The notes below the pieces were generated by a model. The model was not told the DNA's origin and made no database searches. It saw only the letters and a list, made by a program, of their open reading frames with translations. Shown in pieces: positions 5,997-64,000 of a DNA stretch of 64,000 nucleotides (position 1 is the stretch's first letter; the number at the start of each line of letters is the position of its first letter). The DNA comes from a virus. Location of the stretch: IMG/VR virus record IMGVR_UViG_3300032285_004008; one strand, given 5' to 3'. A program made the translations under genes and the position numbers.

Positions 5997-6044
5997 TTTT
6001 TTCCGTCCTTTACTTTAGGTTTGTTGGATTTTTCCAACAAGTCA

Positions 6045-6096
6045 AACTTAGCAGGGTTCGTTGGAAGTTGTCAAGTTCTGCTGTATTTATTTTTCT
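6045..6096 (-). promoter_or_regulatory. Promoter TTGACA-N18-TAAGTT with an inverted AT box upstream and a 13-bp motif overlapping the spacer
   Basis: Consensus -35; TTCGTTGGAAGTT at 6057-6069; TGTATTTATTTTTCT at 6082-6096. Confidence 0.75.
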
Positions 6097-6103
6097 GGCG
6101 TGT

Positions 6104-14124: not shown

Positions 14125-14184
14125 TTACCTTTTTGCAGTCTTTATGAAAGCCAGTCATACACCAGCCACATTTCATTCTGCTCA

Positions 14185-14658
14185 CTACCGATTCCTACGG
14201 CATTCAGCACAGAGCATAACATTGTAGCCTTTGTCTTCATAAAGAATAACTCCACGCTCACTAACTGGAACTGGACTCAAATCCAAAGTTGATCCACATG
14301 GTCCACAAGTAGGAGTCCCAATCCACTCGAGTTTCTGTCCTGCCTTCTCAGCATCTCTGATACCTTGAGCCAAAGCATGCATAGGTCCAGGACCAGTAGT
14401 CTTGCGTAAAAAGATTCGAGTATCTTCTACAGTCAAAATCAATTGCTTCTTTTGGCATTTACAGTTTTGCTTATTCGCAGTGCAGAACTGAGCTCCTGCG
14501 CTAGTCACATCATGAAAACCATCCGCATGGCCGCACATGCAGATTGATTTACTCTTGGCTTTAACCTTCTTAGCTTCCTCAAGCACTTGGTCAATATCCT
14601 CAGCGGTGAAGTCAAAAACTGAAAGCAAGCTCTTGTTGTTATTTTCTTCCATAACCAT
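14185..14658 (-). CDS. Cys/His-rich zinc-binding protein
   Basis: CMCGH..H..C..CKC and CGPC..CAEC. Confidence 0.7.
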   Translation of the reverse strand: MVMEENNNKSLLSVFDFTAEDIDQVLEEAKKVKAKSKSICMCGHADGFHDVTSAGAQFCTANKQNCKCQKKQLILTVEDTRIFLRKTTGPGPMHALAQGIRDAEKAGQKLEWIGTPTCGPCGSTLDLSPVPVSERGVILYEDKGYNVMLCAECRRNR

Positions 14659-14699
14659 ATCCTTTCGCTTGACATTTCATTTGTCAAGTCCATTTTCTG

Positions 14700-15230
14700 T
14701 CAAGTCCATTCTAACACCTATTTATATCTATTTATATTTATCATAGCTATTTAACCTATTTGACTGAACTTTACTAAAGGAATGACCCATACGTACACAC
14801 GCGTAGTACTAGATTAATCAAATAGGTTAAATAGATATAAATAGGTAGGTTATTATCAAATTTTTTATCTTTTTAAAACTTGTTTTTCTTGATAATACCT
14901 TACCCTGTATTATCACCTTTTTAGCATCTAATATTATTTTTTCTTGATAATAACTTTACTTGCTTTTACTTCATATTTATAGTAGAATACACTACCACTA
15001 TGCTACACTTCAAGTACCTATTTAACCTATTTAATTTAATTTATAGAGAGAAAAAATATCTAAGATTTTTCCCATTTAACTAGCAAAATAGGTCAGATAG
15101 ATTGAATAGGTTAGAGCCAAGATTAGATATCAAATCGTTACATATCAACTTCCAACGAATCTTTTTATCACTCGTCAGAAGATAATATATTAATTAATTC
15201 TAAAAATAACCACCAAATTTAAGATTTACA
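14700..15230. other. AT-rich non-coding region with clustered CTATTT/AATAG repeats, putative replication origin
   Basis: About 0.5 kb with no convincing gene, at the - to + strand switch, with inverted repeat clusters. Confidence 0.5.
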
Positions 15231-15238
15231 ATAGTTCC

Positions 15239-15490
15239 ATGGAGCCGTACGATATTCTCACCCCAGATTATAGGGACCCGCTTAGACGCGCATTAGACCG
15301 TATAGAGCTCTGTACTTTTGCTATACAAGAAGCGCATTACGAAGTAGAACCACCCCAGGACCCAGAACACAAGGCTGACCTTCTACTTGCAGTTGAAGCT
15401 TTGGCACTCGAAGCTATAGACCTTTTGCACACGACAAAGTTATTTGTGTGGGGTCCAGAATCGGAATCAGAAGAAGACGAAAAAGATTAG
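15239..15490 (+). CDS. Hypothetical acidic protein
   Basis: TACAAT-N6-ATG leaderless start. Confidence 0.65.
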   Translation: MEPYDILTPDYRDPLRRALDRIELCTFAIQEAHYEVEPPQDPEHKADLLLAVEALALEAIDLLHTTKLFVWGPESESEEDEKD

Positions 15491-15699
15491 TTCTTACCCT
15501 TGTTCCTAGGGAATCTAGGAGGGTAGATTAGCTTTGTTAGGACGATCTGTCCTTCAACAGTCTTACGCAGTTCGCGGATAGATGGCATAACGCGTAGCCA
15601 AAAATAGATAGCGAAGCCAACAATAAAAGTCAGCCAGATAGCAAATATTACTATAAGTGCTATATCCCAGGTTTCCGCGTTTTCTACCATAGAAATCAT
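15487..15699 (-). CDS. Small single-TM membrane protein
   Basis: Hydrophobic IALIVIFAIWLTFIVGFAIYFWL. Confidence 0.55.
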   Translation of the reverse strand: MISMVENAETWDIALIVIFAIWLTFIVGFAIYFWLRVMPSIRELRKTVEGQIVLTKLIYPPRFPRNKGKN

Positions 15700-15775
15700 T
15701 ATAGTGCCCGCCCTACATTGCTGATAAAATAGTACAGGGAGAGACCGCCAAATACAATACCGCTAAGGCCGTCTC

Positions 15776-18700
15776 ATGATTTTTAGAGGTAAATCTCTTA
15801 AAGTATTAAAAAAGCCGCTACTTATTACAGTAACGGCCCTTTTAGCTGCTCTACCTATTACAACAGCAGAAGTAGCGATAGCTCAGCAGGTTAGAACTTT
15901 CTCCTACCTCGAGAAGAATTATTACGAGCTCTACCCCCAGCAACAGCTGCAGCTATTACTAGCGCCACAAGCTCTACAAGAACAGTTAGGCCTACTCCCA
16001 GCCATAGGGATGCCCAATCAAGACCTGTTACAGCAACTACCATTTCACACCTCTTCTTCATCAGTTAGTGATTTACAGGCTACTCTAGCACAGCTACAGC
16101 AGCAATTGCAAGCGGCTCAGTCAACTCTTTCTTCAGCCCAGTCTGACCTACAAACTGCCCTATCCTCAAAAACCTCTACTTCAGCCCAGAGACAGTCAGC
16201 CCAGGATGCTTTAGACCAAGCACAGGGTCAGGTTGACACCCTACAGTCACAATACAATCAAGCCCTACTTGTCACCCAGTCTGCTCAACAGGCTCTACAG
16301 CAGGCTAACAATAACTACTCCCAAGCTCTTTCGCAGCTTCAAGATAGCAATCTAAATACTTCTACTCAAGTCACCAACTACAACCTAGCGCAATCAGCTC
16401 TAGAACTACAGCAACAGCGCGTACAAAACGCACTTGCAACTTTAAACGAAGCTATTCACCAGAACCAAGATGCACTTGATCTTCTAAACTCTGCTAACGA
16501 ATCGCTGACCGGTCAAACAAACACCACAAACCAAGCACAAGAAACATTAAGTGCCAAGCAAACTCAGTACGGCACAGCATCAGCAAACTTCCAACAAGCA
16601 ACTTCTGATTACAACTCAGCGCAGCAAGATTTAAATCAAGCTACAGCTACACAACAAGAAGAACAGCAGAACTACGATTATCTGTTAGGTGTCTACAATC
16701 AAGCAGTTGCAGATAGACAAGCAGCAGAAGTTTCCTACAATCAAGCAGTTTCCAACCACGCTTCAACCGAAGCAGATAAAGCAGCCAAACTAACTGCCAT
16801 GCAGCAAGCAGATGCTCGTGCTTATGAACTAAGTGCTATATACACAGCAGCTGCCGCTCAAGCAGACTTAACATATTCTCAGCTTGTTGTTGCTACACAA
16901 GATAAAGTATTTGCTCAGCAAACTTTGCAACAAGCACAAGCTGCATATGATGCTGCTGCTTCACTAACAATAACTCCACCAAGCACAGGTGCCGTTACTG
17001 CTGGACTGAAGGTAGATGTGTACAACAGCCTGAATCAGATTCCACCTCAACGCTCAACCACTGCCTACCACCTATGTAGGACAGAAACCATGAGCCAGAT
17101 TGCAAACAACTGGGGGTCTGGTTCTATAGAAGGTTGCGGTAGTGATCGCGTGATGGTTCACTACTACGGGTTTATTACCTACCCAACCACCGCTAGCGTC
17201 CAGTTCATGGCGCAGGCAGATGATGGTTTCTATATGACCATCAATGGAACACCTATTGTTACCGACTGGCGAGACAAGGGTTGCGGAGCTTCAAGCTTTA
17301 ATTACTTCCAATTCCAAGCAGGGGTTTCTTATGCCATCGATGCTTGGTTCTATGAGAATGGTGGCGGTGCTTGTTCTACCCTTTATGGCTACGACACCGC
17401 TTACTATCCTTACGGTTGGTTCGTAGTTCCTGCTTCTTTCTTCACCCAAGGTGAAGTCCCTCAGCCAATCCCAGTTCCAGTGCCTCAAACTATTATTGAT
17501 GCCCTTGCAGCTGCACAGGCACTTTACACAAACAAACTAGCAATCTATAACGATGCCGTAGCTCAAAATAACATTGCACAGGGTAATAAGCAAACAACCC
17601 TAGCTAATTACTCGAATGCAATTGATTACCGAAACCAGCGCATGTACGAGTATCAAGCAGCTGATGCAGCAAACAACCAAGCAATTCAAGACGAGCAGGA
17701 TGCCCTAGGAGTTCTTCAGTCTGCACAGGCTTCAGAGGAAGATGCTCTTCAAGCTCTCAATGAGCAAGCTCTTGTTCTAGATGCAGCTAATCAAGTTTTG
17801 GCAGATAAGCAAATGGTATTTGGTATAGCAACTTCTAATTTAGAGTCTGCACGCCAATCTCTATACCAAGCAGACCAAGAACTCGCAGCAGCTCAACAAG
17901 ACTACGACCAGCAAGTTTCTATTCTTCAGCAAGTACAGGACTATCGAGACCAGCTAGCAGCAAATCAAACTGCAACTGATTTACAGCAGCAAATTGCTCA
18001 GCAAGATTATGACAACGAACTAAACATCTTGCACTCACTAGAGCTAGCTCTTGCAGCCGCTCAGTCATCTCTAGAGCAAGCAACCGCAGCTGAGGCTGTT
18101 GCAGCGCAACTTCTAACCAGTGCTCAGCAAGACTTACTTCTAGCACAGCAAGACATAGAAGATGCACTAGTAGCAGAAGCTCAATCACTTGCAGATGCGC
18201 AATCTGCAGAGAGCGTAGAGTCCACCGTCTCATCAGAACTAAGTTCCGCAACCCAAATGGATGACTCTGCAACTACACAAGTTGCTTCTGCACAATCTTC
18301 AGTAGAATCAGCAACCGCTATTGTTTCCTCTACGCAAGATGCTATTGCCGCAATGGAAGCAGCTATAGCAGCTCAACAAGCAGCGGATGCTCAAGCAGCT
18401 CAGGAAGCTGCAGATGCAGCAGCAAAGGCAAAAGCAGAAGCAGACGCTAAAGCTGCAGCAGACGCACTAGCAGCTCAACAGGCGGCAGAAAAAGCAGCGG
18501 CAGAAAAAGCTGCAGCCGACAAGGCTGCTGCAGAAAAAGCAGCCGCTGATGCTCTTGCTGCACAACAAGCAGCTGATGCCGCCGCTAAAGCCAAAGCAGA
18601 TGCAGAGGCTGCCGCAGCAGCTAAAGCTGCCGCAGAAAAAGCAGCGGCAGAAAAAGCTGCAGCAGATGCTCAAGCAGCAGCCGAACAAGCAGCTAAAGAA

Positions 18701-22917: not shown

Positions 22918-23451
22918 TTAGCTATTAATAGGCTCGAGAGTAGGCTGATCTGGCTCGATAACAAAGATATCTTCTGGGATAGCGTAACGGAAAGATCCTT
23001 CATTTATTGCACGAATATTGAATGCATGATCTTCAGTTGGAGAGAAGTAAATAATGCTTCCAGACTTAGGCTTTACTACAAACTCCTGATTTACGAAGTC
23101 GAGCTCCCCACCTTCATAGTCATCATTCACAATAATCAAGCATGACATAAGACAGCGATCATCTTCACGAAGGTGCGCATAGTGCACTACATCGTGCTCT
23201 CCAGGCTCACGACGCTGAATACGATTAGCGTTTCTAACTATATATTCTGACGGGTCAAATAGCGTACGTAGTCTATCTAATACAGCAGATGACAGCCCAA
23301 TGCTACTGATATTAGGGCTCTCGTCTCCTCGCTTATTCCAGTCTTCAGTTGTAAGGGTGGAGCAGTAGTTCAAAATTAGAGCTACCTCTTCTTGAGATAG
23401 AAAGTTTTCGGCAATGAAAATACCTGGGTGTACTTCGATTGGAGCATCCAT
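22918..23451 (-). CDS. 2OG-Fe(II) oxygenase fold, P4H-like (#3), degenerate iron ligands
   Basis: VNDDYEGGELDF..KPKSGS..RY retained; HxD and distal His not canonical. Confidence 0.8.
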   Translation of the reverse strand: MDAPIEVHPGIFIAENFLSQEEVALILNYCSTLTTEDWNKRGDESPNISSIGLSSAVLDRLRTLFDPSEYIVRNANRIQRREPGEHDVVHYAHLREDDRCLMSCLIIVNDDYEGGELDFVNQEFVVKPKSGSIIYFSPTEDHAFNIRAINEGSFRYAIPEDIFVIEPDQPTLEPINS

Positions 23452-26997: not shown

Positions 26998-28203
26998 ATG
27001 GAGATTATTGACCACGGTCATGACATTATCGAATACCGTAATGCCATAACCAACCCCTATGCTCTCATAGCCGATATTGAAGAGCTTGATAGTGATAGGG
27101 GCGTCTATCAAGTTTTACCTAAATTTACCGAGTGGAAAGAGGGCTATACCCAACCAGACGGGGTATGGCGAGCTGTAAACGTCAAAGGGCGTAACAAGGT
27201 ATTTAGGTGGAACGAGAGTCTACAAGTATCAGATAAGTCAGCTAGAGAATTAGCTTCTGAAAAAGTAATCGACCCGATAGTCAACCCCATTATAAAATGC
27301 TCCAATGATTATGCTGAAAAAGTAGGGATACCTCTACCAAATACTGTCAGCAAGAACGTTGATCTTAGGGTATATGCCACTGGAGAGAATCTAGGTGTTC
27401 ATGAAGACACCAATCACGGGGAGCCAGCTACAACCCACAGCCTAGTTATATATCTAAATGATGATTATGAAGGCGGAGAAATAAATTTTCCGAATATAGG
27501 ACTCAAAATAAAGCCACAGGCAGGCTCTATAGTTGCATTCCCAGCAACCACTCCCCACGAATCTATGAAGGTTACAAAAGGGGAAAAGTGGCACAGCCCA
27601 TACTTTTGGTACAGCAGCATCGGATTGATAACCTCAGGCAAAGAGGCACCCAGTATCGACAGATTCAGACCAACAACAAACATTGCTTTAATCGGCTTTG
27701 GACTAGTTGGTAGGGAAGTCTATAGACAGCTAACTAATCACCCAGACTATGAAAGTAAATTTATAGTCTCCCGCATTCAGGTTCTTAATTCAGATATTGA
27801 TAGGGGCGTCCAGCATAACGGGGTAATTATTACTAATGATTTAGCCTCCCTCCAAGAGACAGATATCTACAATACAGTCATTGACTGCTCTGAATACACA
27901 CCTCAATCTAAAGATCTAATAACTAACTTGCTAAAAAGAAAGATAAATCTACATACCTGCAGCAAAGGGTTGGTTGAAGAAAACTGGCAAGAGCTGGTAG
28001 AGCTAGCCAAAGCATCAGGATCAACTATCACTTTTAATTCGATTCCGGCGAGCGCCACTTTAGAGAAATATAAGGGCATAGACCTAACAGACAAGAACTT
28101 TTCTGAACACAATAGTCCCGATCTGTATATCTTTAGAGGAGCCGGACCTAAGGAAACTGCATCTTACATAGTTAATGATGTACTCAACCAGGCAACAATA
28201 TGA
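26998..28203 (+). CDS. P4H-like 2OG-Fe(II) oxygenase (#4) fused to a homoserine-dehydrogenase-like Rossmann domain
   Basis: HED..YLNDDYEGGEINF..HES; then IALIGFGLVG..GAGPKETASYIVND. Confidence 0.8.
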   Translation: MEIIDHGHDIIEYRNAITNPYALIADIEELDSDRGVYQVLPKFTEWKEGYTQPDGVWRAVNVKGRNKVFRWNESLQVSDKSARELASEKVIDPIVNPIIKCSNDYAEKVGIPLPNTVSKNVDLRVYATGENLGVHEDTNHGEPATTHSLVIYLNDDYEGGEINFPNIGLKIKPQAGSIVAFPATTPHESMKVTKGEKWHSPYFWYSSIGLITSGKEAPSIDRFRPTTNIALIGFGLVGREVYRQLTNHPDYESKFIVSRIQVLNSDIDRGVQHNGVIITNDLASLQETDIYNTVIDCSEYTPQSKDLITNLLKRKINLHTCSKGLVEENWQELVELAKASGSTITFNSIPASATLEKYKGIDLTDKNFSEHNSPDLYIFRGAGPKETASYIVNDVLNQATI

Positions 28204-28853
28204 TTAACCAGCTAGCTACATATAAATCAGGAACCCTAGAGGCAGTTGAACTATACAAGGGTATCTATCAAATTGACAATGCTCTGCAGCCAGAAGATAT
28301 TCTCTATTTAAGGACATTAGCTGAAGGATTGCCACAAGATAGTTGGAAAGAGCGAAATCATGAAGTTTTGCATTCCCAGGCGGTGGAGCTCTACGGTGAA
28401 GAGGCAGAAGAGGATATCGCTGCATACATCGAACGAAACCACTCCGCCTACTGGGATGACAAGATAATAAAGATTCCAGATACTGCTTTTAATGACAAAA
28501 TCAATCAGCGTCTAGCTCCCTTCTTCGAGGGGCTATATGATCTGGCGTATCTAGAAGAGGTACAGCGTCAGTATGAGGGTGTTGGTCTAGACGAGCACGT
28601 TGACGCTGAATATGACTCAAGAATCAAGTTCGCTGTAGTTATGTATATAAATGATGACTTTACTGGTGGAGAGTTATATTTCCCACTTAAAGGCATTGAA
28701 ATCAAACCAAAGGCTGGATCCTGCCTAATCTTTGATACAGGCAAAGAATTTCTCCACGGGGTGCGTAAAGTTGGTCCTGGACCAGGAAGATACGCTATGG
28801 CAGGTTTCGCCTGGGAATATGGCACTGGAGAAGGCTGGATAGCCTCGCATTAA
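28200..28853 (+). CDS. 2OG-Fe(II) oxygenase, P4H-like (#5)
   Basis: HVD..YINDDFTGGELYF..HGV..RY. Confidence 0.9.
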   Translation: MINQLATYKSGTLEAVELYKGIYQIDNALQPEDILYLRTLAEGLPQDSWKERNHEVLHSQAVELYGEEAEEDIAAYIERNHSAYWDDKIIKIPDTAFNDKINQRLAPFFEGLYDLAYLEEVQRQYEGVGLDEHVDAEYDSRIKFAVVMYINDDFTGGELYFPLKGIEIKPKAGSCLIFDTGKEFLHGVRKVGPGPGRYAMAGFAWEYGTGEGWIASH

Positions 28854-30872: not shown

Positions 30873-30993
30873 TAGCTTCTTTCTTTGCTAGATACTGACC
30901 ATATTGCATTCCTGCAATAAATCCTTTATAGGCTGCTTCGTTCTCACGACGTAGTAGGTACCAACTAATTTTAGTTTTAATTTTCTTAAGCAT
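30850..30993 (-). CDS. 47-aa hypothetical protein absent from the ORF track
   Basis: MLKKIKTKISWYLLRRENEAAYKGF..; ATG overlaps the subtilase stop codon. Confidence 0.5.
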   Translation of the reverse strand: MLKKIKTKISWYLLRRENEAAYKGFIAGMQYGQYLAKKEANANIPTV

Positions 30994-32168
30994 TATTTAA
31001 CTCTCACGGTTAGGCTAGGTTGTCCAGTGCCCAATGAGCCAACAGCACTAACTCGATAATAACCAGCTACTGCAACATCTGCAAATACATCTAAAGTTTT
31101 AGTGGTACTTACCACAACCCATGTACTTCCGGTGGCGCTACTTTCAATCATGTAGCCAATGATTCCAGAGGTAGGAGCATTTGCTGGTGCAGACCAAGAT
31201 AGCTTGTAACCCGTTCCGCTCTTAGTTGCAGATACTACCGAGACCTTACCTGGAAGAGTAGTCCCGACTGTCTTAGGGGTTACTATAGCAGGGGCATTAG
31301 CAATCGGACCCAAGAATGAAGTATTAAGTAAATAGTTTCCATTCTTAGACTGAGCATCAACTACTACATCCCTGAGAGCCCCGGCACGTAGTGCGCTAGC
31401 AACCTCGGCTGGCTTGGCAGTCGGGTTCTTCTCTAAATATAGAGCAGCTACACCAACAACATGAGGAGTAGCCATAGATGTACCAGTCATTGTTTTATAT
31501 CCTGATGAATTTTGCCAGTCTTCCGAATCAATTAATCCACCTGGAGCAAAAATATCTACGCAGTCTCCGTATGCAGAAGTATTTGTACGCTGGTCATTTT
31601 TATTGATACCGGCAACAGTAAAAGCATTAGGAGCACCTGAAGGACTCCATTTACATGCATCTGTATTTGTATTTGATGCAGCTACTACTGGAAGAATTCC
31701 AGCATTATAAAGACGATCAATAGCGGCATCTACGGCCGGGCTTTTACCAACAGTAATGCTGATATTCACTACTGCAGGACCATTATTTATTGCAAGTACT
31801 TTATCTATACCAGCAATTAAATCTTTTGGATAAACTACACCATTACAATCCGCAACCCTAATCGAGACAATTTTAACCCCTCGAGCCACACCAAACTGAG
31901 AAGATCCAATAGTTCCGGCAACATGGGTACCGTGTCCATTGCAGTCAATATCACCAGAAGCACGTCCACCAAAACCCGGATCACTAATAGCAACTCCAGT
32001 ATCCAGAACATATGCAGTTACGCCAGCACCAGTGTAAGGAACAGAGTAGGAACCATCAATGGCACCATCTAAGCGGTCTAGCCCCCAAGAGGATACGGCA
32101 GCATAGGCAGGAACAGCAGTAAGCGTTAATGAAGCAACCAAGGCTCCAATAAGTAATTTATTCTTCAT
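30993..32168 (-). CDS. Secreted S8 subtilisin-like protease with a C-terminal FN3-like domain
   Basis: Signal peptide; LDTG, HGTHVAG, GTSMATPHV triad. Confidence 0.95.
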   Translation of the reverse strand: MKNKLLIGALVASLTLTAVPAYAAVSSWGLDRLDGAIDGSYSVPYTGAGVTAYVLDTGVAISDPGFGGRASGDIDCNGHGTHVAGTIGSSQFGVARGVKIVSIRVADCNGVVYPKDLIAGIDKVLAINNGPAVVNISITVGKSPAVDAAIDRLYNAGILPVVAASNTNTDACKWSPSGAPNAFTVAGINKNDQRTNTSAYGDCVDIFAPGGLIDSEDWQNSSGYKTMTGTSMATPHVVGVAALYLEKNPTAKPAEVASALRAGALRDVVVDAQSKNGNYLLNTSFLGPIANAPAIVTPKTVGTTLPGKVSVVSATKSGTGYKLSWSAPANAPTSGIIGYMIESSATGSTWVVVSTTKTLDVFADVAVAGYYRVSAVGSLGTGQPSLTVRVK

Positions 32169-33133: not shown

Positions 33134-33769
33134 TTAAGACCAGTTAGGTACTAGATCTATAAAATAGTTTGTAGTGTGTTTTGTAGTTAAAGTGATGTTG
33201 TATCTAGGAACATCTCCCTTAACAGGCTTTACCTCATGAGTATAGTCGGCATTTCCAGAAAAGACTACAAGTGAATTCGAGTTAGGTTTAAATAAAATAT
33301 CTTTATTTTTAAAATATAGCTCCCCACCCTCGTAGTCGTCATTGATATAAAAGTTAATAGCACTTTTTATGTCAGAATTATTTTCATCATCTCGATGCTC
33401 CCCCAGATATCCACCAGCCGTATATCTTTTAACGACTCCCATGTATCCTTTAGGTGTCATATTAGGGAATCCATAAAAATTTAATTTTTCGCTTATGGAT
33501 TTAAAAAATTCAGATTCTTTTAGCGGAACAGCCACTATTGAAGATTTTGCCTTAGTAGTATTTTTTACAGAAGTATCTATAAAATAATCCTGCCTAATTT
33601 TATCTGTTGGCCACATATCTTCTGCAAGTATTTTAAAAAATTCTTTAGTAGACCTATCCCAGTCTATCTTTGAAAAATCATCATTTAGATATGAAAAAAG
33701 AGCGCTAATCTCGAAATTAGTTAGAAAATTTTCGTAAACAAAAATTCCGGGATAGCGCTCTTCAAACAA
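33134..33769 (-). CDS. 2OG-Fe(II) oxygenase, P4H-like (#6)
   Basis: HRD..YINDDYEGGELYF..HEV..RY; AT-rich gene. Confidence 0.85.
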   Translation of the reverse strand: MFEERYPGIFVYENFLTNFEISALFSYLNDDFSKIDWDRSTKEFFKILAEDMWPTDKIRQDYFIDTSVKNTTKAKSSIVAVPLKESEFFKSISEKLNFYGFPNMTPKGYMGVVKRYTAGGYLGEHRDDENNSDIKSAINFYINDDYEGGELYFKNKDILFKPNSNSLVVFSGNADYTHEVKPVKGDVPRYNITLTTKHTTNYFIDLVPNWS

Positions 33770-35184: not shown

Positions 35185-35784
35185 TTATAGCTTCTTTTTA
35201 ACAAACGCGGTACTAGAATACCTAATGCCAGAGGATACTGGCAATACCCCATGCGAGTAATCAGGTGTACCCGGGTGAATTACTAAGCTTCCAATTTTAG
35301 GCTTTATTGCAATTTTTAGATCAGGATAGTATATTTCCCCACCCTCGTAATCATCATTCAAATACAAGACCATCCCATGGGGAGTAGCTATATTTTTATT
35401 TAGACTTGGTCCATCATCTGAATGAACCTCCAAACCTACCCCAGATCGCATAGTTACTACAGTACCTAGATTTATATACTCGATATTAGGATCTTTTTCA
35501 TATCTATCTTCGTAGATCTCGATAGATCTTTTGACAATATCTTTAACTATTAATTGAACTTTAGTGTCTGGATGATGGAACAGATATATGTATGGAGAAT
35601 CATCGTAAGCTTTTTTACCATCATTAATGTATTCATATAAATTATCAGCATATGATCGGTCTGATAGAGCCAACTCTACAGCTTGAACTAGGTAGTTACA
35701 TAAATCTGCTGATAGAAAATCTTCAACATAAGTGATCTCAGTTCCTTGAATAGAACTAGAAAAACTAGAAATATCATGATGCAT
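35185..35784 (-). CDS. 2OG-Fe(II) oxygenase, P4H-like (#7)
   Basis: HSD..YLNDDYEGGEIYY..HGV..RY. Confidence 0.9.
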   Translation of the reverse strand: MHHDISSFSSSIQGTEITYVEDFLSADLCNYLVQAVELALSDRSYADNLYEYINDGKKAYDDSPYIYLFHHPDTKVQLIVKDIVKRSIEIYEDRYEKDPNIEYINLGTVVTMRSGVGLEVHSDDGPSLNKNIATPHGMVLYLNDDYEGGEIYYPDLKIAIKPKIGSLVIHPGTPDYSHGVLPVSSGIRYSSTAFVKKKL

Positions 35785-37715: not shown

Positions 37716-39158
37716 CTATCTGCCAGTAATTACCTTAGTTTTATAGTGTTCTTCCCACAGGGCTACATCATTCAAATCATTAAGAATTGGCTGTCCCTTT
37801 ATATTCAGACTTGTATTAAGAAGTACAGGAACTCCAGTCAATTCATAGAATTTTTTTAAGACAGCGTAGAGCCCGGGGTGCTGCTGAGCATTAACAGTTT
37901 GAACCCTAGAAGTACCATCATGATGCACAACCGACGGGATTGCTTCTGGCTTTAAGCATTTCGGGGTATATTGCATATACGGAGATGCATAATCCATATC
38001 AAACCATTCAGATGCATACTCCTCCATAACTACAGGAGCAAACGGTCTAAATAGCTCACGTTTCTTTATTTTATTTACTTTATCCTTGATGTCGGGATCG
38101 CGAGGATCAGCGAGAATACTACGGTTACCCAGAGCTCTTGGACCATATTCAGCTCTTCCGTTCGCTACTGGAGCTATTTTGTTTTTAATAAGAGCGTCTA
38201 CTATTTCATCCACCGGATAGTCGCCAGGAATGTTAGTACCAAGGTATGGACCCCTCCAGTTTAGTTTCTTTTCATAAAAAGCTGCTGCTGCCCCTAAAGA
38301 TGAACCAGCATCACCAGGGTTAGGCATAATCCATATATTAGGAAATATATCGTGAAGCAGTGTATTTGCCTTGCTATTGAGAGCACACCCACCAGCAAAA
38401 ACTAAATTATCGCTCCATGATTCTTGTCTAGCAATGTAGACAAAATCCCATAGGCGATCTTCATAGACTCTCTGCACAGCTGCCGCTATATGGAACTTAT
38501 CATTATCAGTTATATCTTGGCCCCAGTCATCGATACCCTTATGAAAGTTATAGGTTTGCTTGTACACAGAAGGGAAGTATTTAGAGACCTTTTCAAAATA
38601 GAGATCAGGATCACCATAAGCAGCCATGCCCATCATGATGTATTCTTCTTCATTTGGTTTTAGCCCAATTAGATCAGTAAAGGCCGAATAGAAAAGACCA
38701 AAACTAAATGGATACTTCCAACGCTTAACTTGCTTAAGCTCATCTCCTTTGCCATGCCATATAGAGCTAGTAGTAAATTCGCCAATAGCATCAAGAACAA
38801 TAACTACAGCATCATCAAATGGAGAGGTGTAATACCCCGCCGCAGCGTGGGAGTGGTGGTGGTACGCAACATATGTAGGAATGCCTTTAAGCTCAGGCAT
38901 ACTAGTATAAAAAGGTTTTCCACCACCTAAACCTCCTCTAGAAAATATACGCCACTTCTTAAGCCAGCGATCTTCATAATAGGCAATTCTATCGGGGGTG
39001 CCATATGAAAGTGCTTCAAGGATAAGATCACGATTGGTATACCAATCATTTTTAATTTTGGAATATCGCTCAGCATGAGCAGCAAATAAAATTTTGCCAT
39101 CTTCAATTAAAGTAATTGAAGCATCATGAGAAGTCTCATTTATACCTAGAATTTTCAT
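37716..39158 (-). CDS. Carbamoyltransferase (NodU/CmcH family)
   Basis: HDAS..ERYS..HHHSHAA..DAIGE..MGMAAYG..EYGPRALGNRSILADP..FRPFAP..NTSLN. Confidence 0.95.
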   Translation of the reverse strand: MKILGINETSHDASITLIEDGKILFAAHAERYSKIKNDWYTNRDLILEALSYGTPDRIAYYEDRWLKKWRIFSRGGLGGGKPFYTSMPELKGIPTYVAYHHHSHAAAGYYTSPFDDAVVIVLDAIGEFTTSSIWHGKGDELKQVKRWKYPFSFGLFYSAFTDLIGLKPNEEEYIMMGMAAYGDPDLYFEKVSKYFPSVYKQTYNFHKGIDDWGQDITDNDKFHIAAAVQRVYEDRLWDFVYIARQESWSDNLVFAGGCALNSKANTLLHDIFPNIWIMPNPGDAGSSLGAAAAFYEKKLNWRGPYLGTNIPGDYPVDEIVDALIKNKIAPVANGRAEYGPRALGNRSILADPRDPDIKDKVNKIKKRELFRPFAPVVMEEYASEWFDMDYASPYMQYTPKCLKPEAIPSVVHHDGTSRVQTVNAQQHPGLYAVLKKFYELTGVPVLLNTSLNIKGQPILNDLNDVALWEEHYKTKVITGR

Positions 39159-39166
39159 AACAAGTC

Positions 39167-39787
39167 CTAATAGTTGAAATGCTTCGTGCTAGAGATATTT
39201 CCTTTACGGGAATAGAAAAAAACTAAATTTTTTCTCTCTCCCGAGAGAACTTCAGTTACCTCATGTATATGATCTATATCGCCTTTAAAAACTACTAGCT
39301 GACCCTTCTTAGGCTCAATAGCTAGATTCTGAAGATGAAATTTAAGCAATCCACCAGAGAAATCAATAGAGTGATTATTTAAATACAGAAGAGCTGAAAA
39401 TTCTAATTCTTCAGGGACCCCGTCGTCTCTCCAAGTAGAGCCATCCAATTTTACAGAGTCTGCATGAAGCTCGTTTTTGGCCCCTTTAGACATACTTTGA
39501 TAGGTGCAGTTCACTAAATCTAGTTCTAAATTAAAAAACTGTTCGGCATACGAGTGCACATTTTTGTACACAGACTCTAAATCAGAGACATATTGCTCTT
39601 TATCGGAAGAATAGTTTTTTACAGCCCTAGCGGAGGTGCCTACTTTAGAAGCATCCTCTGATGTGTCATAACCTAAGGCACCTTTAATACCCCCCTGAGG
39701 AGTAGGGGTAGCTAGCTCATCAAGAAAGATAGACAAGCTATCTGCCAAATCAGTAGGAATAAACCCATCAACTATAGAAATATTCAT
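39167..39787 (-). CDS. 2OG-Fe(II) oxygenase, P4H-like (#8)
   Basis: HAD..LLYLN..FSGGLLKF..HEV..R. Confidence 0.85.
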   Translation of the reverse strand: MNISIVDGFIPTDLADSLSIFLDELATPTPQGGIKGALGYDTSEDASKVGTSARAVKNYSSDKEQYVSDLESVYKNVHSYAEQFFNLELDLVNCTYQSMSKGAKNELHADSVKLDGSTWRDDGVPEELEFSALLYLNNHSIDFSGGLLKFHLQNLAIEPKKGQLVVFKGDIDHIHEVTEVLSGERKNLVFFYSRKGNISSTKHFNY

Positions 39788-58550: not shown

Positions 58551-61500
58551 TGTCATCTAATATCTATCCAAATCCTAATTCAGTCTTTACTCCTACAGAG
58601 GTTTTAAACGACCCTGTAAATAAGCTACGTACCTCAAGCCCACAGGCTCTTATTGATACTGACTTCGAGTATGGTACTCAGATTTCAAAGTGGGAAAACC
58701 TAGCTGCAACAAATAACCGTCCATTTGCAGCACCATCGGCCACCACATTGAGTAATATTTCTTCGATGACTATGTCTTCAAATGCTCGTGTAGTTACTGT
58801 TTCTCTCTCAACCACTTCGTCTACACCAAACTCTGTAGCCTCTGCCACTCCTGTTACTGGTTTTGCCACGTACACTACTGCTGCTAGCCACGGATTCTTC
58901 CCTGGTCAATACGTAACAATTGCCGGTTCCTCTGTATCTGGCTATAACGGAACATTTTTAATTACATCAACCCCTACTGCAACCACATTTGTTGTAGCCA
59001 ACTCAACTACGGGAACTCCATCATGGTCAGGTGCATCTGCACTTGCTGGTGTTGCTCCAGCAGTTGGCTCGGCAATCACGGTACAGGATACATACCTAAA
59101 TATTGCAAATGGTAACTTCTTGATTGAGACCGGTGGTGGAACTGGTACTTTTACCTACTTAGGTCGTGCTCAGAATACCCTGGGTGTTACTTCAATTTTT
59201 GACCCAAACAAGACATCTATTGCTGTAGCAACTATTTATACAAATGCTCAGATTGGTGGAGCACCTACAGTAACAGTTTCAGGTACTGATCTAAAAGTCA
59301 CAGTAACAACAACTGTACCTCACGGATTATCAGTAGGCAATGAAATAGGTGTTACCGGTATTACCGGAACTAACCCACCAAATGGTTCGTATCAGGTAGC
59401 TACAGTTGCCTCTCCTACTACTTTTGTATATTATGCAGATCCTACAGAAGGAACCCCTTCTAGCTTGACTGCATCATCTGCAGCTATATATGTTCGTCCA
59501 CAAGCTCAGTTCCTACACCGTCCATTTGATGGTGGAGTTCTTTTCTCTGCTAACGGTTCTTCCAACTATGAAACTGCAATTCGCCAGACTCGTCGTTACT
59601 TCCGTTACCAGTCTGGTAAGGGTATCCAGATGTCTTCTGGAACTATCTTTAAGCCATATGGAAATATTGACAGCATTACCTCTAGCGGTGGAGTTGCAAC
59701 TGTAACCACTAAGGAGCAGCACAATATTCAGCCTGGAACAACTATCGTTATTTCTGGAGCAAATGAGTCAGCATATAACGGTTCATTTACTGTTAGCAGT
59801 ATTACCGGTTATAACTCCTTCACATATGCAATTACCGGAAGCCCTGCTAGCCCAGCAACTGGAATTGTAAACGTAAACGTAAATACTTGGTACGGAGCAG
59901 CTAACCGTCTAGGAATTTTTGACAGCCAGAATGGACTTTTCTGGGAATTTGATGGTCAGAACCTATATGCAGTTAAGCGTTCTTCTACTCAGCAGCTTTC
60001 TGGCCGAGTAGACGTTACCAATGGATCAAATGTTGTCTCTAGAACTACATCCGCATTCCCTACTGCATTCTCTAGCCAGCTAAACCCTGGCGACTATGTA
60101 GTTATTCGCGGGCAGTCTTACCGAGTATTGGCAATTGATGACATATCATCTACACCAAACTTCACTATCTCTCCTTCATACCGTGGAGCTTCTACTTCAC
60201 ACGTAACTGTGTCTAAAACAATCGAGACTCGTATCCCTCAGTCGCAGTTTAATCTAGATAAACTAGATGGAACCGGCCCTTCTGGGTACACCATCGATCT
60301 AACCAAGATGCAGATGTTCTATGTGGACTACTCTTGGTATGGTGCTGGTTTTATCCGCTGGGGTGTACGTGCCACAAATGGTGACGTTATTTATGCACAC
60401 AAGATGCAAAACAATAACGTCAACAATGAAGCATACATGCGTTCAGGAAACCTTCCAGGTCGCTACGAGTCGCAGACTCTACCACCGACTACTAAGGTGA
60501 CTGCAAATATTGGTGCATCTGATACAACACTTACTGTTTCAGATACCTCATCTTTCCCTACTACTGGAACTCTTCTTATCCGTCCAAGTACAGCAACTAA
60601 CCAAGCATCGTTGACATATGAATATGTAAACTACACTGGTAAAACTGCAACTACTTTCACTGGTTTGACTCGTTCTCAGGCTGGCGCAGCTGGAGTAACT
60701 ACTACCTGGACAGCAGGCTCTAACTCAGGTACCGTATCCAGTGCAACAGGTATCCAGATCGGTCAACGAGTAGTATCTAGCACTAGCCCTAACCCAGTGC
60801 CAGACGGTACTTTTGTTACTGGAATTAGCGGAACAACTGTTACACTCAACTCTGCTCTAACGGCTAATAACCCGACTTTGATTTTTGCTCCGCTAGGTGC
60901 AACTTCTGGTACTGCTTATACATACTCAGCAGCATCTCCAATTTCAGTTGAGCTAGCAGCGCCTACATTCTCACCATCGGTATCTCACTGGGGTACCTCG
61001 GTTATTATGGATGGTCGATTCGATGACGACAAGTCTCTTATCTTCACATACGGTCAGACTAACTTTGCAACTATTGCTTCTGGTGCTAGCAAGGCTCTTA
61101 TGTCAATCCGAGTAGCTCCGTCTGTGGATAACGGTATTGGAGCTGCTTTTGGAGCTCGCGACTTGATTAACCGCATGCAGCTAAAGATGAGCGCCTTGGA
61201 TATCACTACTAAGACGACAGGTGCAAACCTTTTGATTCGTGCATATCTAAATGGTGTACCTTCATCGGCAACCGCATGGACAAACGCTGTGGGCAATATC
61301 CCAGGCGTTGTTAACTCGTCTCTAGCTCAGATTGCTGACCATGGTACCGGTGTGACAACAGTTTATGGTGGAGAAGTTACCGGTGGATTCTTTGTATCTA
61401 CAACTGGTTCGATTGATCTAGGATCTCTACGAGACCTAGGTAACTCTATCCTAGGTGGTGGCTCCACAGTAGCAAACACCGGAATCTACCCAGATGGACC

Positions 61501-62476: not shown

Positions 62477-63823
62477 ATGAGCAAAAGAACCGGTAAGCAC
62501 TCCGCACAGCAGAATGACTTTTTGCAGCCAGCTGCAGTAACTATCACCACTGCAACTAACGTTGGTACTAACCGACCATACCTGTTTTCTGCTACTGGAA
62601 ATGCTGGCACTGGTGGTGCAGTAAACCTAGTATGGACTCTACCTAATGGCTCAGCTCCAGCTATAAGCTACGATATTACAACTACCCCTACAACTGTAAC
62701 CAAAAACACAACTACACTTCCAACTTCTGGATCTCCATTCGTATTTGAAGGTCTTGCCTCTGGTACAGACTATACATTCACGGTAGTAGCTAAGAACAAT
62801 GCTGGAAACTCAAATCCAACAACTTCTCAAACAGTCTCTGTAAGTACTGTACCTCCTGCCCCAAATACTCCGTCAGTTCGTCAGGTCAGTAATGACCAAA
62901 ATGACTACCTAACAATTACAATCTCTGCAACTGGTGGTTCTGCAATTACCAACTTCCACTGGGAAAGTACTGACTCTAAGTCTGGTGACCGAGGAACTAG
63001 TACCGCAGAATTTGCTGTAGCTCAGGAAGCTAATACTGCCCAACAGTATCGTGCTTATGCCACAAACGCCAATGGAAATTCAGACTGGTCTGGTTATTCT
63101 GGGTCTGTAACAACTCCTCCTTACTTCCCCCCTTACTTCCCGTTCTTCCCTTACTTCCCGCCATTCTTCCCGTACTTCCCTCCTTATTTCCCATACTTCC
63201 CATATTTCCCTCCTTATTTCCCATACTTCCCACCGTTCTTCCCTTATTTCCCTTATTTCCCACCGTTCTTCCCTTACTTCCCACCGTTCTTCCCTTATTT
63301 CCCACCGTTCTTCCCGTTCTTCCCGTTCTTCCCTCCTCGCTTCTGCATCGAGGAAAGTACTTTGGTTGATACTCCTTCGGGATCAGTAGCGGCTAAGGAT
63401 CTTAAGGTAGGAGATACCTTGGTATCAGTAGCTCTAGAAGAGCTTTCAACAGAGCCTCGATCTGAAGAAAACTTTATTATTGGCCCTACACTAACCCTCG
63501 GCGGTGGAGAGCCAGTAGAGACTACTATCGTTGACATTATCGAGAGTACTAAGGCAGAAATCGTATACTTCAATGAAGATACAACTGCTAAGTACTCAAA
63601 TGAGCAGTCAATGTTTGCCCTAGTTGATGGTCAGTTCCAGACTATAAATGCTGGACTACTGAAGCCTGGAGACTACTTGGTCAAGGTGCTGCCGGATGGT
63701 ACTTATGTAACAGAAGAGATCTCATCTATCACCGAGATTTACGAACCTACAACCGTATATCAGTACATCTGTGAACCATATAACTGGTTTATTGCAGGTG
63801 GATATCTAGTACACCAGAACTAA
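62477..63823 (+). CDS. FN3-domain protein with a (P)P[YF]F repeat and a C-terminal Hint domain
   Basis: FN3 motifs (GLASGTDYTFTVVAKNNAG; YATNANG.S.WS); 76-aa Pro/aromatic tract; Hint from CIEESTLV..DLKVGD to VY..WFIAGGYLVHQN. Confidence 0.85.
   Translation: MSKRTGKHSAQQNDFLQPAAVTITTATNVGTNRPYLFSATGNAGTGGAVNLVWTLPNGSAPAISYDITTTPTTVTKNTTTLPTSGSPFVFEGLASGTDYTFTVVAKNNAGNSNPTTSQTVSVSTVPPAPNTPSVRQVSNDQNDYLTITISATGGSAITNFHWESTDSKSGDRGTSTAEFAVAQEANTAQQYRAYATNANGNSDWSGYSGSVTTPPYFPPYFPFFPYFPPFFPYFPPYFPYFPYFPPYFPYFPPFFPYFPYFPPFFPYFPPFFPYFPPFFPFFPFFPPRFCIEESTLVDTPSGSVAAKDLKVGDTLVSVALEELSTEPRSEENFIIGPTLTLGGGEPVETTIVDIIESTKAEIVYFNEDTTAKYSNEQSMFALVDGQFQTINAGLLKPGDYLVKVLPDGTYVTEEISSITEIYEPTTVYQYICEPYNWFIAGGYLVHQN
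63116..63343 (+). repeat. 22 tandem units of (P)P-[Y/F]-F (last unit PPRF), pyrimidine-rich DNA
   Basis: Direct translation: 32 Pro, one Arg, all other residues Tyr or Phe. Confidence 0.95.
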
Positions 63824-63829
63824 ATTAAG

Positions 63830-63862
63830 AAAAAATAAGGCCCCCACGGGCCTTATTTTTTT
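63830..63862 (+). terminator. Intrinsic terminator
   Basis: AAAAAATAAGGCCC-CCAC-GGGCCTTATTTTTTT. Confidence 0.85.
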
Positions 63863-63914
63863 GCCAAAATCAGGATAATAGTGCTAGACTGGTGCCAATA
63901 GTTCAGGAGAATAT

Positions 63915-64000
63915 ATGACATACGATCCAAGTCAAAATAACTGGTTTACTAAAGACAGATCAGAAACTACTAGTAATAGGTCTGCAAATCGCCAGTTAGG
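63915..64000 (+). CDS. 5' end of a gene truncated by the window edge (MTYDPSQNNWFTKDRSET..)
   Basis: AGGAG RBS, TAGACT -10, frame open to the window end. Confidence 0.65.
   Translation, partial: MTYDPSQNNWFTKDRSETTSNRSANRQL

What the first reader, a model, noticed from the sequence alone, without database searches (positions are those of the whole stretch)
62477..64000. FN3 - (P)P[YF]F x22 - Hint protein: candidate self-processing, modified virion appendage or RiPP-like precursor
Seen: the last gene of the tail module has FN3 domains, then 76 aa made only of Pro, Tyr and Phe (one Arg) with mixed synonymous codons, so the peptide rather than the DNA repeat looks selected. The tract ends exactly at Cys1 of a 159-aa Hint domain (63344). 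The Hint ends HQN-stop with no Cys/Ser/Thr +1, and its block-B TxxH appears as SNEQ. Known: Hedgehog/BIL Hint domains form a thioester at Cys1 and release or ligate the upstream protein without splicing. Inference: the Pro-aromatic tract becomes an activated C-terminus that is cleaved or coupled to a nucleophile, and is hydroxylated and decorated by the phage's oxygenases and transferases. The truncated next gene may be another such enzyme. This is my best candidate for an undescribed system.
Basis: partly seen in the sequence, partly recalled or inferred. Interest (0 to 1): 0.92.

Follow-up and report, generated by a model that had tools for sequence, protein, structure and literature searches.

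The report
Phage fibre protein, Pro-aromatic stalk, Hint cap
An uncultured aquatic phage encodes a tail-module protein with two FN3 domains, a 76-residue tract made almost only of proline, phenylalanine and tyrosine, and a real intein-like (Hint) end domain; it belongs to a large undescribed family that always sits beside a battery of prolyl-hydroxylase-like enzymes, so it is probably a chemically tailored, self-processing virion appendage.

Summary
ORF 62477-63823 (+, 448 aa) has a conserved N-terminal peptide, two FN3 domains, a 76-aa tract (P32 F30 Y13 R1) and, from Cys290 (nt 63344), a 159-aa Hint domain. AF2 gives pLDDT 94.8, and the best PDB fold and profile match is a bacterial intein-like (BIL) domain.

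It cannot splice, because one residue follows His-Gln and half of its relatives lack His-Asn. In 188 distinct domains, position 1 is Cys (135) or Ser (41). Block B is S/T-x-x-Q/H, and Ser1 always pairs with His. That points to retained N-terminal acyl-shift chemistry.

The larger finding is a module. FN3 + Pro/Phe-tract genes are followed by 3-11 P4H-like 2OG oxygenases plus DUF6065: 49/54 tract-ascertained loci and 44/44 DUF6065-ascertained loci. FG-type tract homologues lack the array (1/37). The Hint is one of several interchangeable C-terminal caps (Cys-rich knot, acidic tail). The gene starting at 63915 is the first oxygenase.

Hydroxylation and cleavage are both inferred, not shown. I found no paper describing this. 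The scan noted a related phage proline-hydroxylation cassette on other DNA (e1-5391729). The RiPP reading is unlikely.

The parts
62477..63823 (+). Whole gene: 448-aa FN3-FN3-P(P)[YF]F tract-Hint protein, the last gene of a co-oriented tail-fibre block.
   Evidence: At least 472 homologues of the same length and architecture. The upstream genes are fibre-like: Mtd_N, phrog_5838 virion structural protein, tail-fibre PHROGs.
62477..62536 (+). Conserved N-terminal peptide (residues 1-20, K-x-x-G-x-x-S-x-x-Q-N-D-F-L-x-P). Inferred to be the virion-docking end.
   Evidence: K3, G6, S9, L16 and P18 are at least 90% conserved in A3. AF2 puts a short helix at residues 12-15. The docking role is inference only.
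62537..63115 (+). Two FN3 (Ig-like) domains, about residues 21-122 and 126-212.
   Evidence: Pfam fn3 E 1.2e-8 for residues 45-116. AF2 pLDDT is 88-97 across both beta-sandwiches.
63116..63343 (+). Pro/aromatic tract, residues 214-289: P32 F30 Y13 R1, 22 P(P)[YF]F-type units. Probable substrate of the downstream P4H-like array and a spacer or stalk.
   Evidence: Composition and codons. TRF finds only imperfect DNA repeats, 64-79% matches. AF2 pLDDT is 42-56 with no secondary structure. Co-occurrence with the oxygenase array.
63344..63820 (+). Hint (BIL-like) domain, residues 290-448. Key positions: Cys1 = C290 (63344-63346); block B S374 (63596-63598) and Q377 (63605-63607); block F:4 position Q429; ends H446-Q447-N448 then stop.
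   Evidence: AF2 pLDDT 94.8. Foldseek PDB top hits are 2lwy (BIL), 6y75 (BUBL BIL2), mini-inteins and 1at0 (hedgehog). The profile matches 2lwy at E 8.3e-12 and KlbA at 9.8e-9. Residue conservation.
63830..63861 (.). GC-rich hairpin flanked by an A-run and a T-run (terminator-like in both directions), between the tract gene and the oxygenase array.
   Evidence: Sequence. The scan lists it with 14 pairs.
63915..64000 (+). Start of the first of ten co-oriented tailoring genes, a 250-aa P4H-like 2OG-Fe(II) oxygenase. The array continues beyond the window.
   Evidence: L001/L140 gene table: 8 genes with PF13640, 1 DUF6065 and 1 DUF6065-like. The closest solved relatives are Bacillus anthracis P4H 3itq/5hv0, E 3e-4.

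Best explanation
This is a virion-appendage protein from the tail-fibre module of an uncultured aquatic phage of about 120-140 kb.

Proposed layout: an N-terminal peptide and two FN3 domains form the folded part. The 76-aa Pro/Phe/Tyr tract is an extended stalk or linker. The stalk is the dedicated substrate of the adjacent battery of prolyl-4-hydroxylase-like 2OG oxygenases plus DUF6065 proteins. In some relatives a GlcNAc-transferase-like or a sulfotransferase-like gene is added.

Proposed Hint chemistry: the C-terminal domain is a BIL/Hedgehog-type Hint domain that cannot splice. Cys290 would attack the Phe289 carbonyl (N-S acyl shift). The resulting thioester would be resolved by water or another nucleophile. 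That would release the hydroxylated FN3-stalk from a removable C-terminal cap, much as the self-cleaving C-terminal chaperone domains of other phage fibres are released.

Shown here: the architecture, the Hint fold, the conservation of the nucleophile, and the gene neighbourhood.

Inferred: virion location, hydroxylation, and cleavage or transfer.
For: Hint domain:
- The fold is confident and is closest to BIL domains, by structure and by profile.
- Among 188 distinct domains, position 1 is Cys in 135 and Ser in 41; the other 12 are alignment gaps. Block B S/T is present in 178.
- Ser1 always pairs with block-B His (41/41). Cys1 pairs mostly with Gln (100), otherwise with His (27). This is the pattern expected if catalysis is under selection.
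- About half of the family has no terminal His-Asn, and none has a real C-extein. Only the N-terminal reaction can be the conserved one.
- The tract+Hint unit recurs at the C-terminus of otherwise unrelated fibre or adhesin proteins (PASTA-type, and multidomain proteins of 874-971 aa). The tract always directly precedes Cys1 (BFVD hits).

Module:
- The ten genes downstream in this phage are 8 P4H-like, DUF6065 and a DUF6065-like gene.
- Loci found through the tract: 49/54 PP-type have at least 3 oxygenases plus DUF6065. FG-type homologues: 1/37, and 0/37 for DUF6065.
- Loci found independently through DUF6065: 44/44 carry an FN3 + Pro/Phe-tract gene just upstream.
- Each tract or tail type has its own accessory genes.
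- A PF11397 GlcNAc-transferase-like gene lies between the tract gene and the array in L006. From memory, that Pfam family is the Skp1 hydroxyproline GlcNAc-transferase family.

A BIL domain that turns its thioester into an isopeptide bond is documented for Tetrahymena BUBL (PMC8616854).
Against: - No biochemical or proteomic data exist for any member.
- In this particular protein three canonical catalytic positions are Gln: block B His becomes Q377, F:4 Asp becomes Q429, and the terminal Asn becomes Q447. It could be slow or inactive.
- A few relatives seem to have lost the position-1 nucleophile (L075, L015, L078), so the domain can persist without catalysis.
- Hint-less variants show that the cap is dispensable for the module.
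- The oxygenase array is also next to collagen-like fibres in this phage, and the genome has 8 more P4H-like genes elsewhere. The tract need not be the only substrate, or the true one.
- After allowing for shared ancestry, the tract-type/array association is 5-6 against 1 in independent pairs, p about 0.2.
- Conserved synteny by descent could explain much of the 44/44.
Confidence: 0.5

Rival explanations
1. Ligation rather than simple cleavage. The Hint keeps a latent thioester at the end of the stalk and transfers the stalk's C-terminus to a nucleophile. The acceptor could be a Lys of another virion protein (covalent assembly) or an amine or hydroxyl on the host envelope (covalent adsorption). 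This would work as in Hedgehog cholesteroylation or BUBL isopeptide formation.
For: The chemistry is the same as in the best explanation up to the thioester. The closest structural neighbours include BUBL BIL2, which makes Lys-isopeptide bonds. The tract+Hint unit sits on adhesin-like proteins with FN3 or PASTA domains. The alternative Cys-rich tails could be a different covalent (disulfide) anchoring device.
Against: No acceptor has been identified. There is no sterol- or adduct-recognition region after the Hint. Acidic-tail and tail-less variants have no obvious ligation chemistry. No neighbour gene is specific to all Hint-bearing loci.
Confidence: 0.15
2. The Hint domain is a non-catalytic distal knob. 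It would be a folded cap or binding domain that stays attached, and the tract is an unmodified flexible linker.
For: Q377, Q429 and Q447 replace canonical catalytic residues in this protein. Some relatives lack the nucleophile. The cap is interchangeable with small Cys-rich or acidic tails. AF2 sees the tract as unstructured.
Against: Cys or Ser at position 1 is kept in 176 of 176 alignable domains spanning 25-40% identity, and the Ser1-His / Cys1-Gln pairing is hard to explain structurally. The tract always abuts position 1.
Confidence: 0.22
3. The oxygenase array serves other substrates, such as collagen-like fibres, nucleic acid or small molecules. Its adjacency to the tract gene would then be inherited synteny only.
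For: Collagen-like fibres follow the array in this phage. Eight further P4H-like genes are scattered among non-structural genes. The independent-pairs test is not significant.
Against: Only 12 of 87 array-bearing loci show a collagen-like ORF within the fetched DNA, against 82 with a tract ORF, although most of those loci were ascertained through the tract. The DUF6065-ascertained set gives 44/44. FG-tract homologues in similar genomic positions lack the array and carry other paralogous families instead.
Confidence: 0.25
4. RiPP-like precursor. The tract would be a core peptide that is modified, excised and released as a small bioactive product.
For: A repetitive core-like tract lies next to many tailoring enzymes, and the window also encodes a subtilase.
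Against: The tract is flanked by folded FN3 and Hint domains, inside a fibre gene block. It also occurs as an internal linker between folded domains of other structural proteins. No leader peptide, transporter or dedicated N-side cleavage site is seen.
Confidence: 0.03

Closest known systems
Bacterial intein-like (BIL) domains, e.g. the Clostridium thermocellum BIL (PDB 2LWY)
   Same: Hint fold, best match both by Foldseek (E 1.1e-7) and by sequence profile (E 8.3e-12). Cys at position 1. No +1 Cys/Ser/Thr. Found in variable surface-type proteins. Expected to give cleavage rather than canonical splicing.
   Different: It is encoded by a phage, at the extreme C-terminus of a virion-module protein, with 0-12 residues after it. 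Block B is S-x-x-Q in 54% of members, including this one. It is always preceded by a Pro/aromatic tract. Half of the members lack His-Asn altogether.
Hedgehog/Hog C-terminal autoprocessing domain (PDB 1AT0) and Tetrahymena BUBL BIL2 (PDB 6Y75)
   Same: A Hint domain at the C-terminal side of the product. Its only conserved reaction is thioester formation at Cys1, followed by transfer of the upstream polypeptide to a nucleophile: cholesterol for Hedgehog, Lys for BUBL (PMC8616854). Both are among the top structural hits.
   Different: There is no sterol-recognition or adduct-recognition extension. The acceptor, if any, is unknown. Sequence identity is only 9-14%.
Self-cleaving C-terminal intramolecular chaperone domains of phage tailspikes and fibres (Peptidase_S74)
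   Same: Functional analogy: a removable C-terminal auto-processing module on phage fibre proteins. A Peptidase_S74 fibre lies in the same gene block in relative L018.
   Different: The fold and the chemistry are unrelated (Ser-Lys dyad protease against Hint acyl shift). The analogy is an inference.
Viral and bacterial prolyl 4-hydroxylases with proline-rich substrates encoded by the same genome (PBCV-1 P4H; Bacillus anthracis P4H, PDB 3ITQ/5HV0), and plant extensin or Skp1 Hyp-glycosylation pathways
   Same: P4H-like 2OG oxygenases are encoded next to a Pro-rich repeat protein. The closest solved relatives of the first array enzyme are B. anthracis P4H. A PF11397 GlcNAc-transferase-like gene is present in relative L006. 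The PBCV-1, extensin and Skp1 parallels are from memory.
   Different: The array holds 8-11 paralogous oxygenases plus DUF6065 proteins, not one enzyme. The substrate motif would be P(P)[YF]F or PPxFF, which is not a known P4H motif. No activity has been shown.

Membership tests
Hint superfamily (intein / Hog / BIL fold) | Hint beta-fold | tested here: met
   AF2 pLDDT 94.8, pTM 0.89. 59 PDB hits at E<=1e-3 (the rows shown are inteins, BIL or hedgehog), TM about 0.65-0.70. Profile E 8.3e-12 to 2lwy.
Hint superfamily (intein / Hog / BIL fold) | Cys/Ser/Thr nucleophile at position 1 | tested here: met
   C290 in this protein. Cys 135 and Ser 41 among 188 distinct family domains; the rest are alignment gaps.
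Hint superfamily (intein / Hog / BIL fold) | Block B T-x-x-H | tested here: inconclusive
   This protein has S374-N-E-Q377. The family has S/T in 178/188, with Q 101, H 74 and E 7 at the His position. The motif aligns with T-H-D-H of the KlbA intein. Compensation for a missing block-B His is reported for inteins (reference cited in PMC8616854).
Canonical (splicing) intein | C-terminal His-Asn followed by a Cys/Ser/Thr +1 residue of a C-extein | tested here: not met
   The protein ends H446-Q447-N448-stop. Relatives end HNK-stop or ..IVIS/..VIA/..LTIA without His-Asn.
Canonical (splicing) intein | Insertion into a conserved host protein that exists elsewhere without the insert | tested here: not met
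   The domain is terminal. Hint-less relatives carry a different tail at the same junction rather than a rejoined extein.
BIL domain (A-type) | Hint with Cys1 and terminal His-Asn but a non-nucleophilic +1 residue, in variable secreted or surface proteins | tested here: inconclusive
   About 45% of the family ends H-N-(K). This member has H-Q-N. BIL is the best structural and profile match. Type-specific motifs were not tested, because no BIL A/B/C models were at hand.
Hedgehog/Hog autoprocessing domain | Hint followed by a sterol- or adduct-recognition region | tested here: not met
   The protein stops at the end of the Hint fold.
Prolyl 4-hydroxylase-type 2OG-Fe(II) oxygenase (neighbour genes) | PF13640 domain above the gathering score, with relatives among solved P4Hs | tested here: met
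   45 bits against a cutoff of 27 for the gene starting at 63915. 3itq/5hv0 P4H at E 3e-4. Substrate and activity cannot be tested here.
RiPP precursor | Short leader-core peptide with a dedicated maturation protease or transporter | tested here: not met
   This is a 448-aa multidomain protein in a fibre block, and the tract is also an internal linker elsewhere.

The most novel reading that the evidence does not exclude
Phage virion proteins would carry a new kind of post-translationally built stalk. A Pro-aromatic repeat is hydroxylated, and in some lineages glycosylated or sulfated, by a dedicated battery of up to about 10 paralogous P4H-like enzymes plus DUF6065. The terminal Hint domain stores a latent thioester that covalently ligates the stalk's C-terminus to another virion protein or to the host envelope. 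That would be intein-type chemistry used for covalent phage assembly or irreversible adsorption.
Probability: 0.12. Interest if true: 0.95.

Novelty: new variant of a known kind. Interest (0 to 1): 0.78.

Why it matters
Large aquatic phages are known for carrying many 2OG-Fe(II) oxygenase genes, and what those enzymes act on is mostly unknown. Here the oxygenases have a concrete, testable candidate substrate encoded next door. The candidate is a Pro/Phe/Tyr repeat stalk on a fibre-module protein. At least 472 homologous proteins and at least 594 DUF6065 loci are in public data, so the module is widespread.

The finding also places a BIL/Hedgehog-type Hint domain at the end of phage structural proteins. 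I found no paper describing such a role. If the domain cleaves or ligates, it is a new maturation or attachment chemistry for virions, and a natural source of self-cleaving tags. DUF6065 also gains a context: it is a partner of P4H-like enzymes.

Tried and rejected
- tblastn of the whole protein and of the Hint part against 50,697 deposited phage genomes gave no match. No cultured relative carries the gene.
- Pfam alone gives only sub-threshold Hint or intein hits. A single-sequence PDB search was marginal. The profile and the structure were needed.
- The search for related loci with the broad alignment A1 failed because it had no conserved 7-10-mer. I replaced it with a tract DNA pattern and single-protein or DUF6065 queries.
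- No whole genome is held for this window.
- The tract pattern in 185,579 prokaryote genomes gave only 15 stretches. The multi-copy ones lie on short contigs of MAGs from unrelated phyla, probably mis-binned phage DNA. No host could be inferred.
- The host stays open. The portal of relative L019 is 57-59% identical to 130-kb Streptomyces phages. One fibre gene of the window is about 80% identical at the nucleotide level over 200 nt to T4-like cyanophages. No such portal lies in the window or in L001/L140.
- hhalign found no link between the P4H-like set and DUF6065, and only a weak DUF6065 to 'unk' link (66% probability).
- An all-against-all BLAST of neighbours timed out. I repeated it on immediate neighbours only.
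- The phylogenetically independent pairs test for tract type against array was not significant.
- Literature searches on Hint with tail fibre, BIL with phage, P4H with phage, DUF6065 and PF11397 found nothing on this system.
- I rejected the selfish-intein reading, because there is no extein to rejoin, and the RiPP reading.
Full report
**1. What is there.**
The ORF at 62477-63823 (+) encodes 448 aa. It closes a co-oriented block of fibre-like genes:
- a 1240-aa protein with an Mtd_N domain;
- a 1012-aa protein matching phrog_5838 'virion structural protein' at E 1e-271;
- a 286-aa protein matching tail-fibre PHROGs.

Pfam finds one FN3 at E 1.2e-8. A full-length AlphaFold2 model built on 46 homologues shows two confident beta-sandwich domains at about residues 20-122 and 126-212. 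It also shows a low-confidence, structure-less stretch at 214-289 (pLDDT 42-56) and a confident C-terminal domain.

Residues 214-289 are P32 F30 Y13 R1, that is 21 P(P)[YF]F units plus PPRF. Cys290 is encoded at 63344.

One detail needs correcting. Pro and Tyr codons are mixed, but all 30 Phe codons of the tract are TTC, against 5 of 12 elsewhere in the gene. At the DNA level the repeats are only 64-79% alike.

**2. The Hint domain is real.**
Pfam alone is sub-threshold: Intein_splicing E 0.016 and Hint_2 E 0.21. An AF2 model of residues 285-448 reaches pLDDT 94.8. Its best PDB matches are these:
- the Clostridium thermocellum bacterial intein-like domain 2LWY (E 1.1e-7);
- the Tetrahymena BUBL BIL2 domain 6Y75;
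- mini-inteins;
- hedgehog 1AT0.

A profile of 21 family Hint domains hits 2LWY at E 8.3e-12 and the KlbA intein at 9.8e-9. In the KlbA alignment the family's S-x-x-Q lines up with the intein's block-B T-x-x-H. In BFVD the nearest models are uncultured-phage proteins auto-named 'Hint domain containing', 'Fibronectin type III' and 'PASTA_pknB domain containing'.

**3. What the Hint can and cannot do.**
The protein ends H446-Q447-N448-stop. Among 188 distinct family domains:

| Position | Residues observed |
|---|---|
| Position 1 | Cys 135, Ser 41, 12 alignment gaps |
| Block B Thr position | S/T in 178 |
| Block B His position | Gln 101, His 74, Glu 7 |
| C-terminal pair | His-Asn in about 45%; the rest end ...IVIS, ...VIA, ...LTIA or ...VLMF |

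None has more than about a dozen residues after the fold. Splicing and C-terminal cleavage therefore cannot be the conserved function. Only the N-terminal acyl shift can be.

Ser1 is always accompanied by block-B His (41/41). Cys1 goes mostly with Gln (100), less often with His (27). The weaker nucleophile keeping the stronger catalytic partner is what selection for catalysis would give, although shared ancestry may inflate the numbers.

Some evidence points against activity in this particular protein:
- Q377, Q429 (the F:4 Asp position) and Q447 all replace canonical residues.
- A few relatives seem to have lost the nucleophile altogether.

A naturally missing block-B His can be compensated in inteins (reference cited in PMC8616854).

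**4. The family and the module.**
The search for homologous proteins returned at least 472 homologues. Nearly all are metagenomic and 390-470 aa long with the same architecture. None is in 50,697 deposited phage genomes.

The longer contig holding the window (L001/L140) shows ten co-oriented genes after the gene and a terminator-like hairpin. Eight carry PF13640 (2OG-FeII_Oxy_3), one is DUF6065, and one is weakly DUF6065-like. The closest solved relatives of the first enzyme are Bacillus anthracis prolyl 4-hydroxylases. The truncated gene starting at 63915 is that first enzyme.

I then fetched three sets of loci from IMG/VR:
- by an FG-tract homologue (75 loci);
- independently, by DUF6065 (at least 594 hits, 80 kept).

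Scoring used HMMs I built from the L001/L018/L019 genes.

| Locus set | Result |
|---|---|
| PP-type tract genes with at least 5 kb downstream | 49/54 followed by at least 3 P4H-like genes (median 6, maximum 9), and 49/54 by DUF6065 |
| Homologues with an FGFTPFG(A)FG tract | 1/37 with at least 3 oxygenases, 0/37 with DUF6065 |
| DUF6065-ascertained loci with at least 5 kb upstream | 44/44 carry an FN3 + Pro/Phe-tract gene just upstream, with either a P(P)[YF]F or a PP[GS]FF[AS] tract |

The FG-type homologues carry other paralogous families of about 214 aa instead of the array.

The limit of this evidence is relatedness. On a tree of the FN3 part there are only 8 well-supported independent pairs that differ in tract type. 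The array goes the same way in 5-6 of them and the other way in 1 (p about 0.2). The link is strong descriptively and only suggestive statistically.

**5. The Hint is one of several caps, and the tract is a general linker.**
Many FN3-tract genes with the same oxygenase array have no Hint. They end in one of these:
- a tail of about 25 aa with 8-9 Cys (for example ...CCGSCGC). This type is accompanied by its own neighbour gene family of about 147 aa: 23 of 29 loci across three BLAST clusters of about 147 aa.
- an acidic tail (...EETDE);
- a few residues only.

P0008 is 72% identical to the window protein over the FN3 part. It switches to an acidic tail exactly after ...FPPRF, where the window protein has Cys1.

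Conversely, tract+Hint units close other, unrelated structural proteins:
- PASTA-type proteins of 347 and 394 aa;
- multidomain proteins of 573, 874 and 971 aa.

The same tract also serves as an internal linker. One example is a He_PIG protein of this very phage (L140:15027-15986). Others are L085 and L096.

This argues that the tract is a structural stalk or linker element and not a RiPP core. The Hint is a portable C-terminal module whose substrate junction is the end of such a tract.

**6. Most likely mechanism.**
Shown:
- the architecture;
- the Hint fold;
- the conserved nucleophile;
- the neighbourhood.

Inferred:
- The protein is a virion appendage.
- Its tract prolines are hydroxylated by the array.
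- In some lineages there is further decoration. L006 has a PF11397 GlcNAc-transferase-like gene; from memory, that is the Skp1 hydroxyproline GlcNAc-transferase family. L010 has a Sulfotransfer_2-like gene and an Asp/Asn beta-hydroxylase-like gene.
- Cys290 forms a thioester with Phe289, which is then hydrolysed or transferred, removing the cap.

My odds:
- about 0.5 for this package as a whole;
- about 0.6 that the tract is hydroxylated;
- about 0.5 that this particular Hint cleaves;
- about 0.15 that the outcome is ligation rather than hydrolysis.

The BUBL BIL2 domain, a top structural neighbour, shows that a BIL thioester can be resolved into a Lys isopeptide bond (PMC8616854).

**7. Rivals.**
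- A non-catalytic knob: 0.22.
- An array that serves other substrates: 0.25. Two collagen-like fibres lie just downstream, and eight more P4H-like genes are scattered in the window.
- A RiPP precursor: 0.03.

**8. Novelty.**
Each component is of a known kind: a BIL/Hedgehog-type Hint, and viral or bacterial P4H-like enzymes. Three things appear undescribed:
- the Pro-aromatic tract as a recurrent phage stalk;
- its fixed pairing with a multi-paralogue oxygenase + DUF6065 array;
- the use of a terminal Hint as one of several interchangeable caps on virion proteins.

Eight full-text searches found nothing on the system. UniProt carries members only under automatic names.

The scan itself had already noted a related 'phage proline-hydroxylation and glycosylation cassette' on other DNA (e1-5391729). 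Other first-stage notes on this genome describe the same locus (e1-5791713).

I class this as a new variant of known kinds, with high interest because it is widespread and directly testable.

Noticed in passing
window 8905-9597(-), 9604-10242(-), 22921-23451(-), 26998-28200(+), 28200-28850(+), 33137-33769(-), 35188-35784(-), 39170-39787(-): Eight further P4H-like 2OG oxygenase genes (my HMM, E 3e-17 to 2e-33) are scattered among non-structural genes. With the eight in the downstream array, that makes about 16 on one phage contig. One of them (26998-28200) is fused to an NAD_binding_3 domain.
   Followed up: partly
L140:10366-13638, 13638-15017 and 15027-15986 (same contig, beyond the window): Directly after the oxygenase array come two collagen-like (G-X-Y) fibre genes of 1090 and 459 aa, with Pro mostly in the X position. 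They are followed by a 320-aa He_PIG protein that uses a 40-aa P(P)[YF]F tract as an internal linker.
   Followed up: partly
L022:609-1610, L069:3502-4437, L125:2606-3601, L092:3124-4065: These are Hint-less FN3-tract proteins ending in a tail of about 25 aa with 8-9 cysteines (e.g. ...CWQACPxCCGxCGC). This type is specifically followed by a gene family of about 147 aa with no Pfam match (23 of 29 such loci), placed before the oxygenase array.
   Followed up: partly
L017:10001-13243, and L141-L204: Homologues whose tract is FGFTPFG(A)FG (FG-repeat-like, few prolines) mostly begin their Hint with Ser instead of Cys. They lack the P4H/DUF6065 array and are followed by 2-3 paralogues of an unannotated family of about 214 aa. 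This may be a different tailoring set for a different tract.
   Followed up: partly
L006:11767-12771; L010:5334-6035 and 6013-6579: Extra tailoring genes are wedged between the tract gene and the oxygenase array in some relatives. One is a PF11397 'GlcNAc' glycosyltransferase (E 7e-20). Others are a marginal Sulfotransfer_2 (23.3 bits against a cutoff of 22) and an Asp/Asn beta-hydroxylase-like cupin (E 2.6e-12).
   Followed up: no
L010:13672-14712; L013:12106-13287: Proteins with a PASTA-like N-terminal domain, PT-rich or PPY repeats, a short P[YF]F tract and a C-terminal Hint. BFVD names a matching model 'PASTA_pknB domain containing protein'. A peptidoglycan-binding domain on a phage appendage hints at a Gram-positive (actinobacterial?) host.
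   Followed up: no
L019:18786-20363: The portal of a syntenic relative is 57-59% identical to portals of 130-kb Streptomyces phages. In contrast, window 60282-60487 is about 80-85% identical at the nucleotide level to 'virion structural protein' genes of T4-like Synechococcus phages. The fibre genes look mosaic, and the host is unresolved.
   Followed up: partly
window 63116-63343: All 30 Phe codons in the tract are TTC, whereas the rest of the gene uses TTT 7 times and TTC 5 times. Many IMG/VR contigs end inside such tracts, so assemblies often break there.
   Followed up: no
L001:12954-13688: In the ESM Atlas, DUF6065 is mostly viral. It occurs fused to 2OG-FeII_Oxy_3 in phages and to Cupin_8/JmjC_2 in Pseudomonadota. 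That supports a role as a partner of 2OG oxygenases.
   Followed up: partly
window 30993-32168(-), 37716-39158(-): A Peptidase_S8 subtilase, which also gives a weak hit to the FN3 N-terminal HMM (E 2e-7), and a carbamoyltransferase lie among the scattered oxygenases.
   Followed up: no
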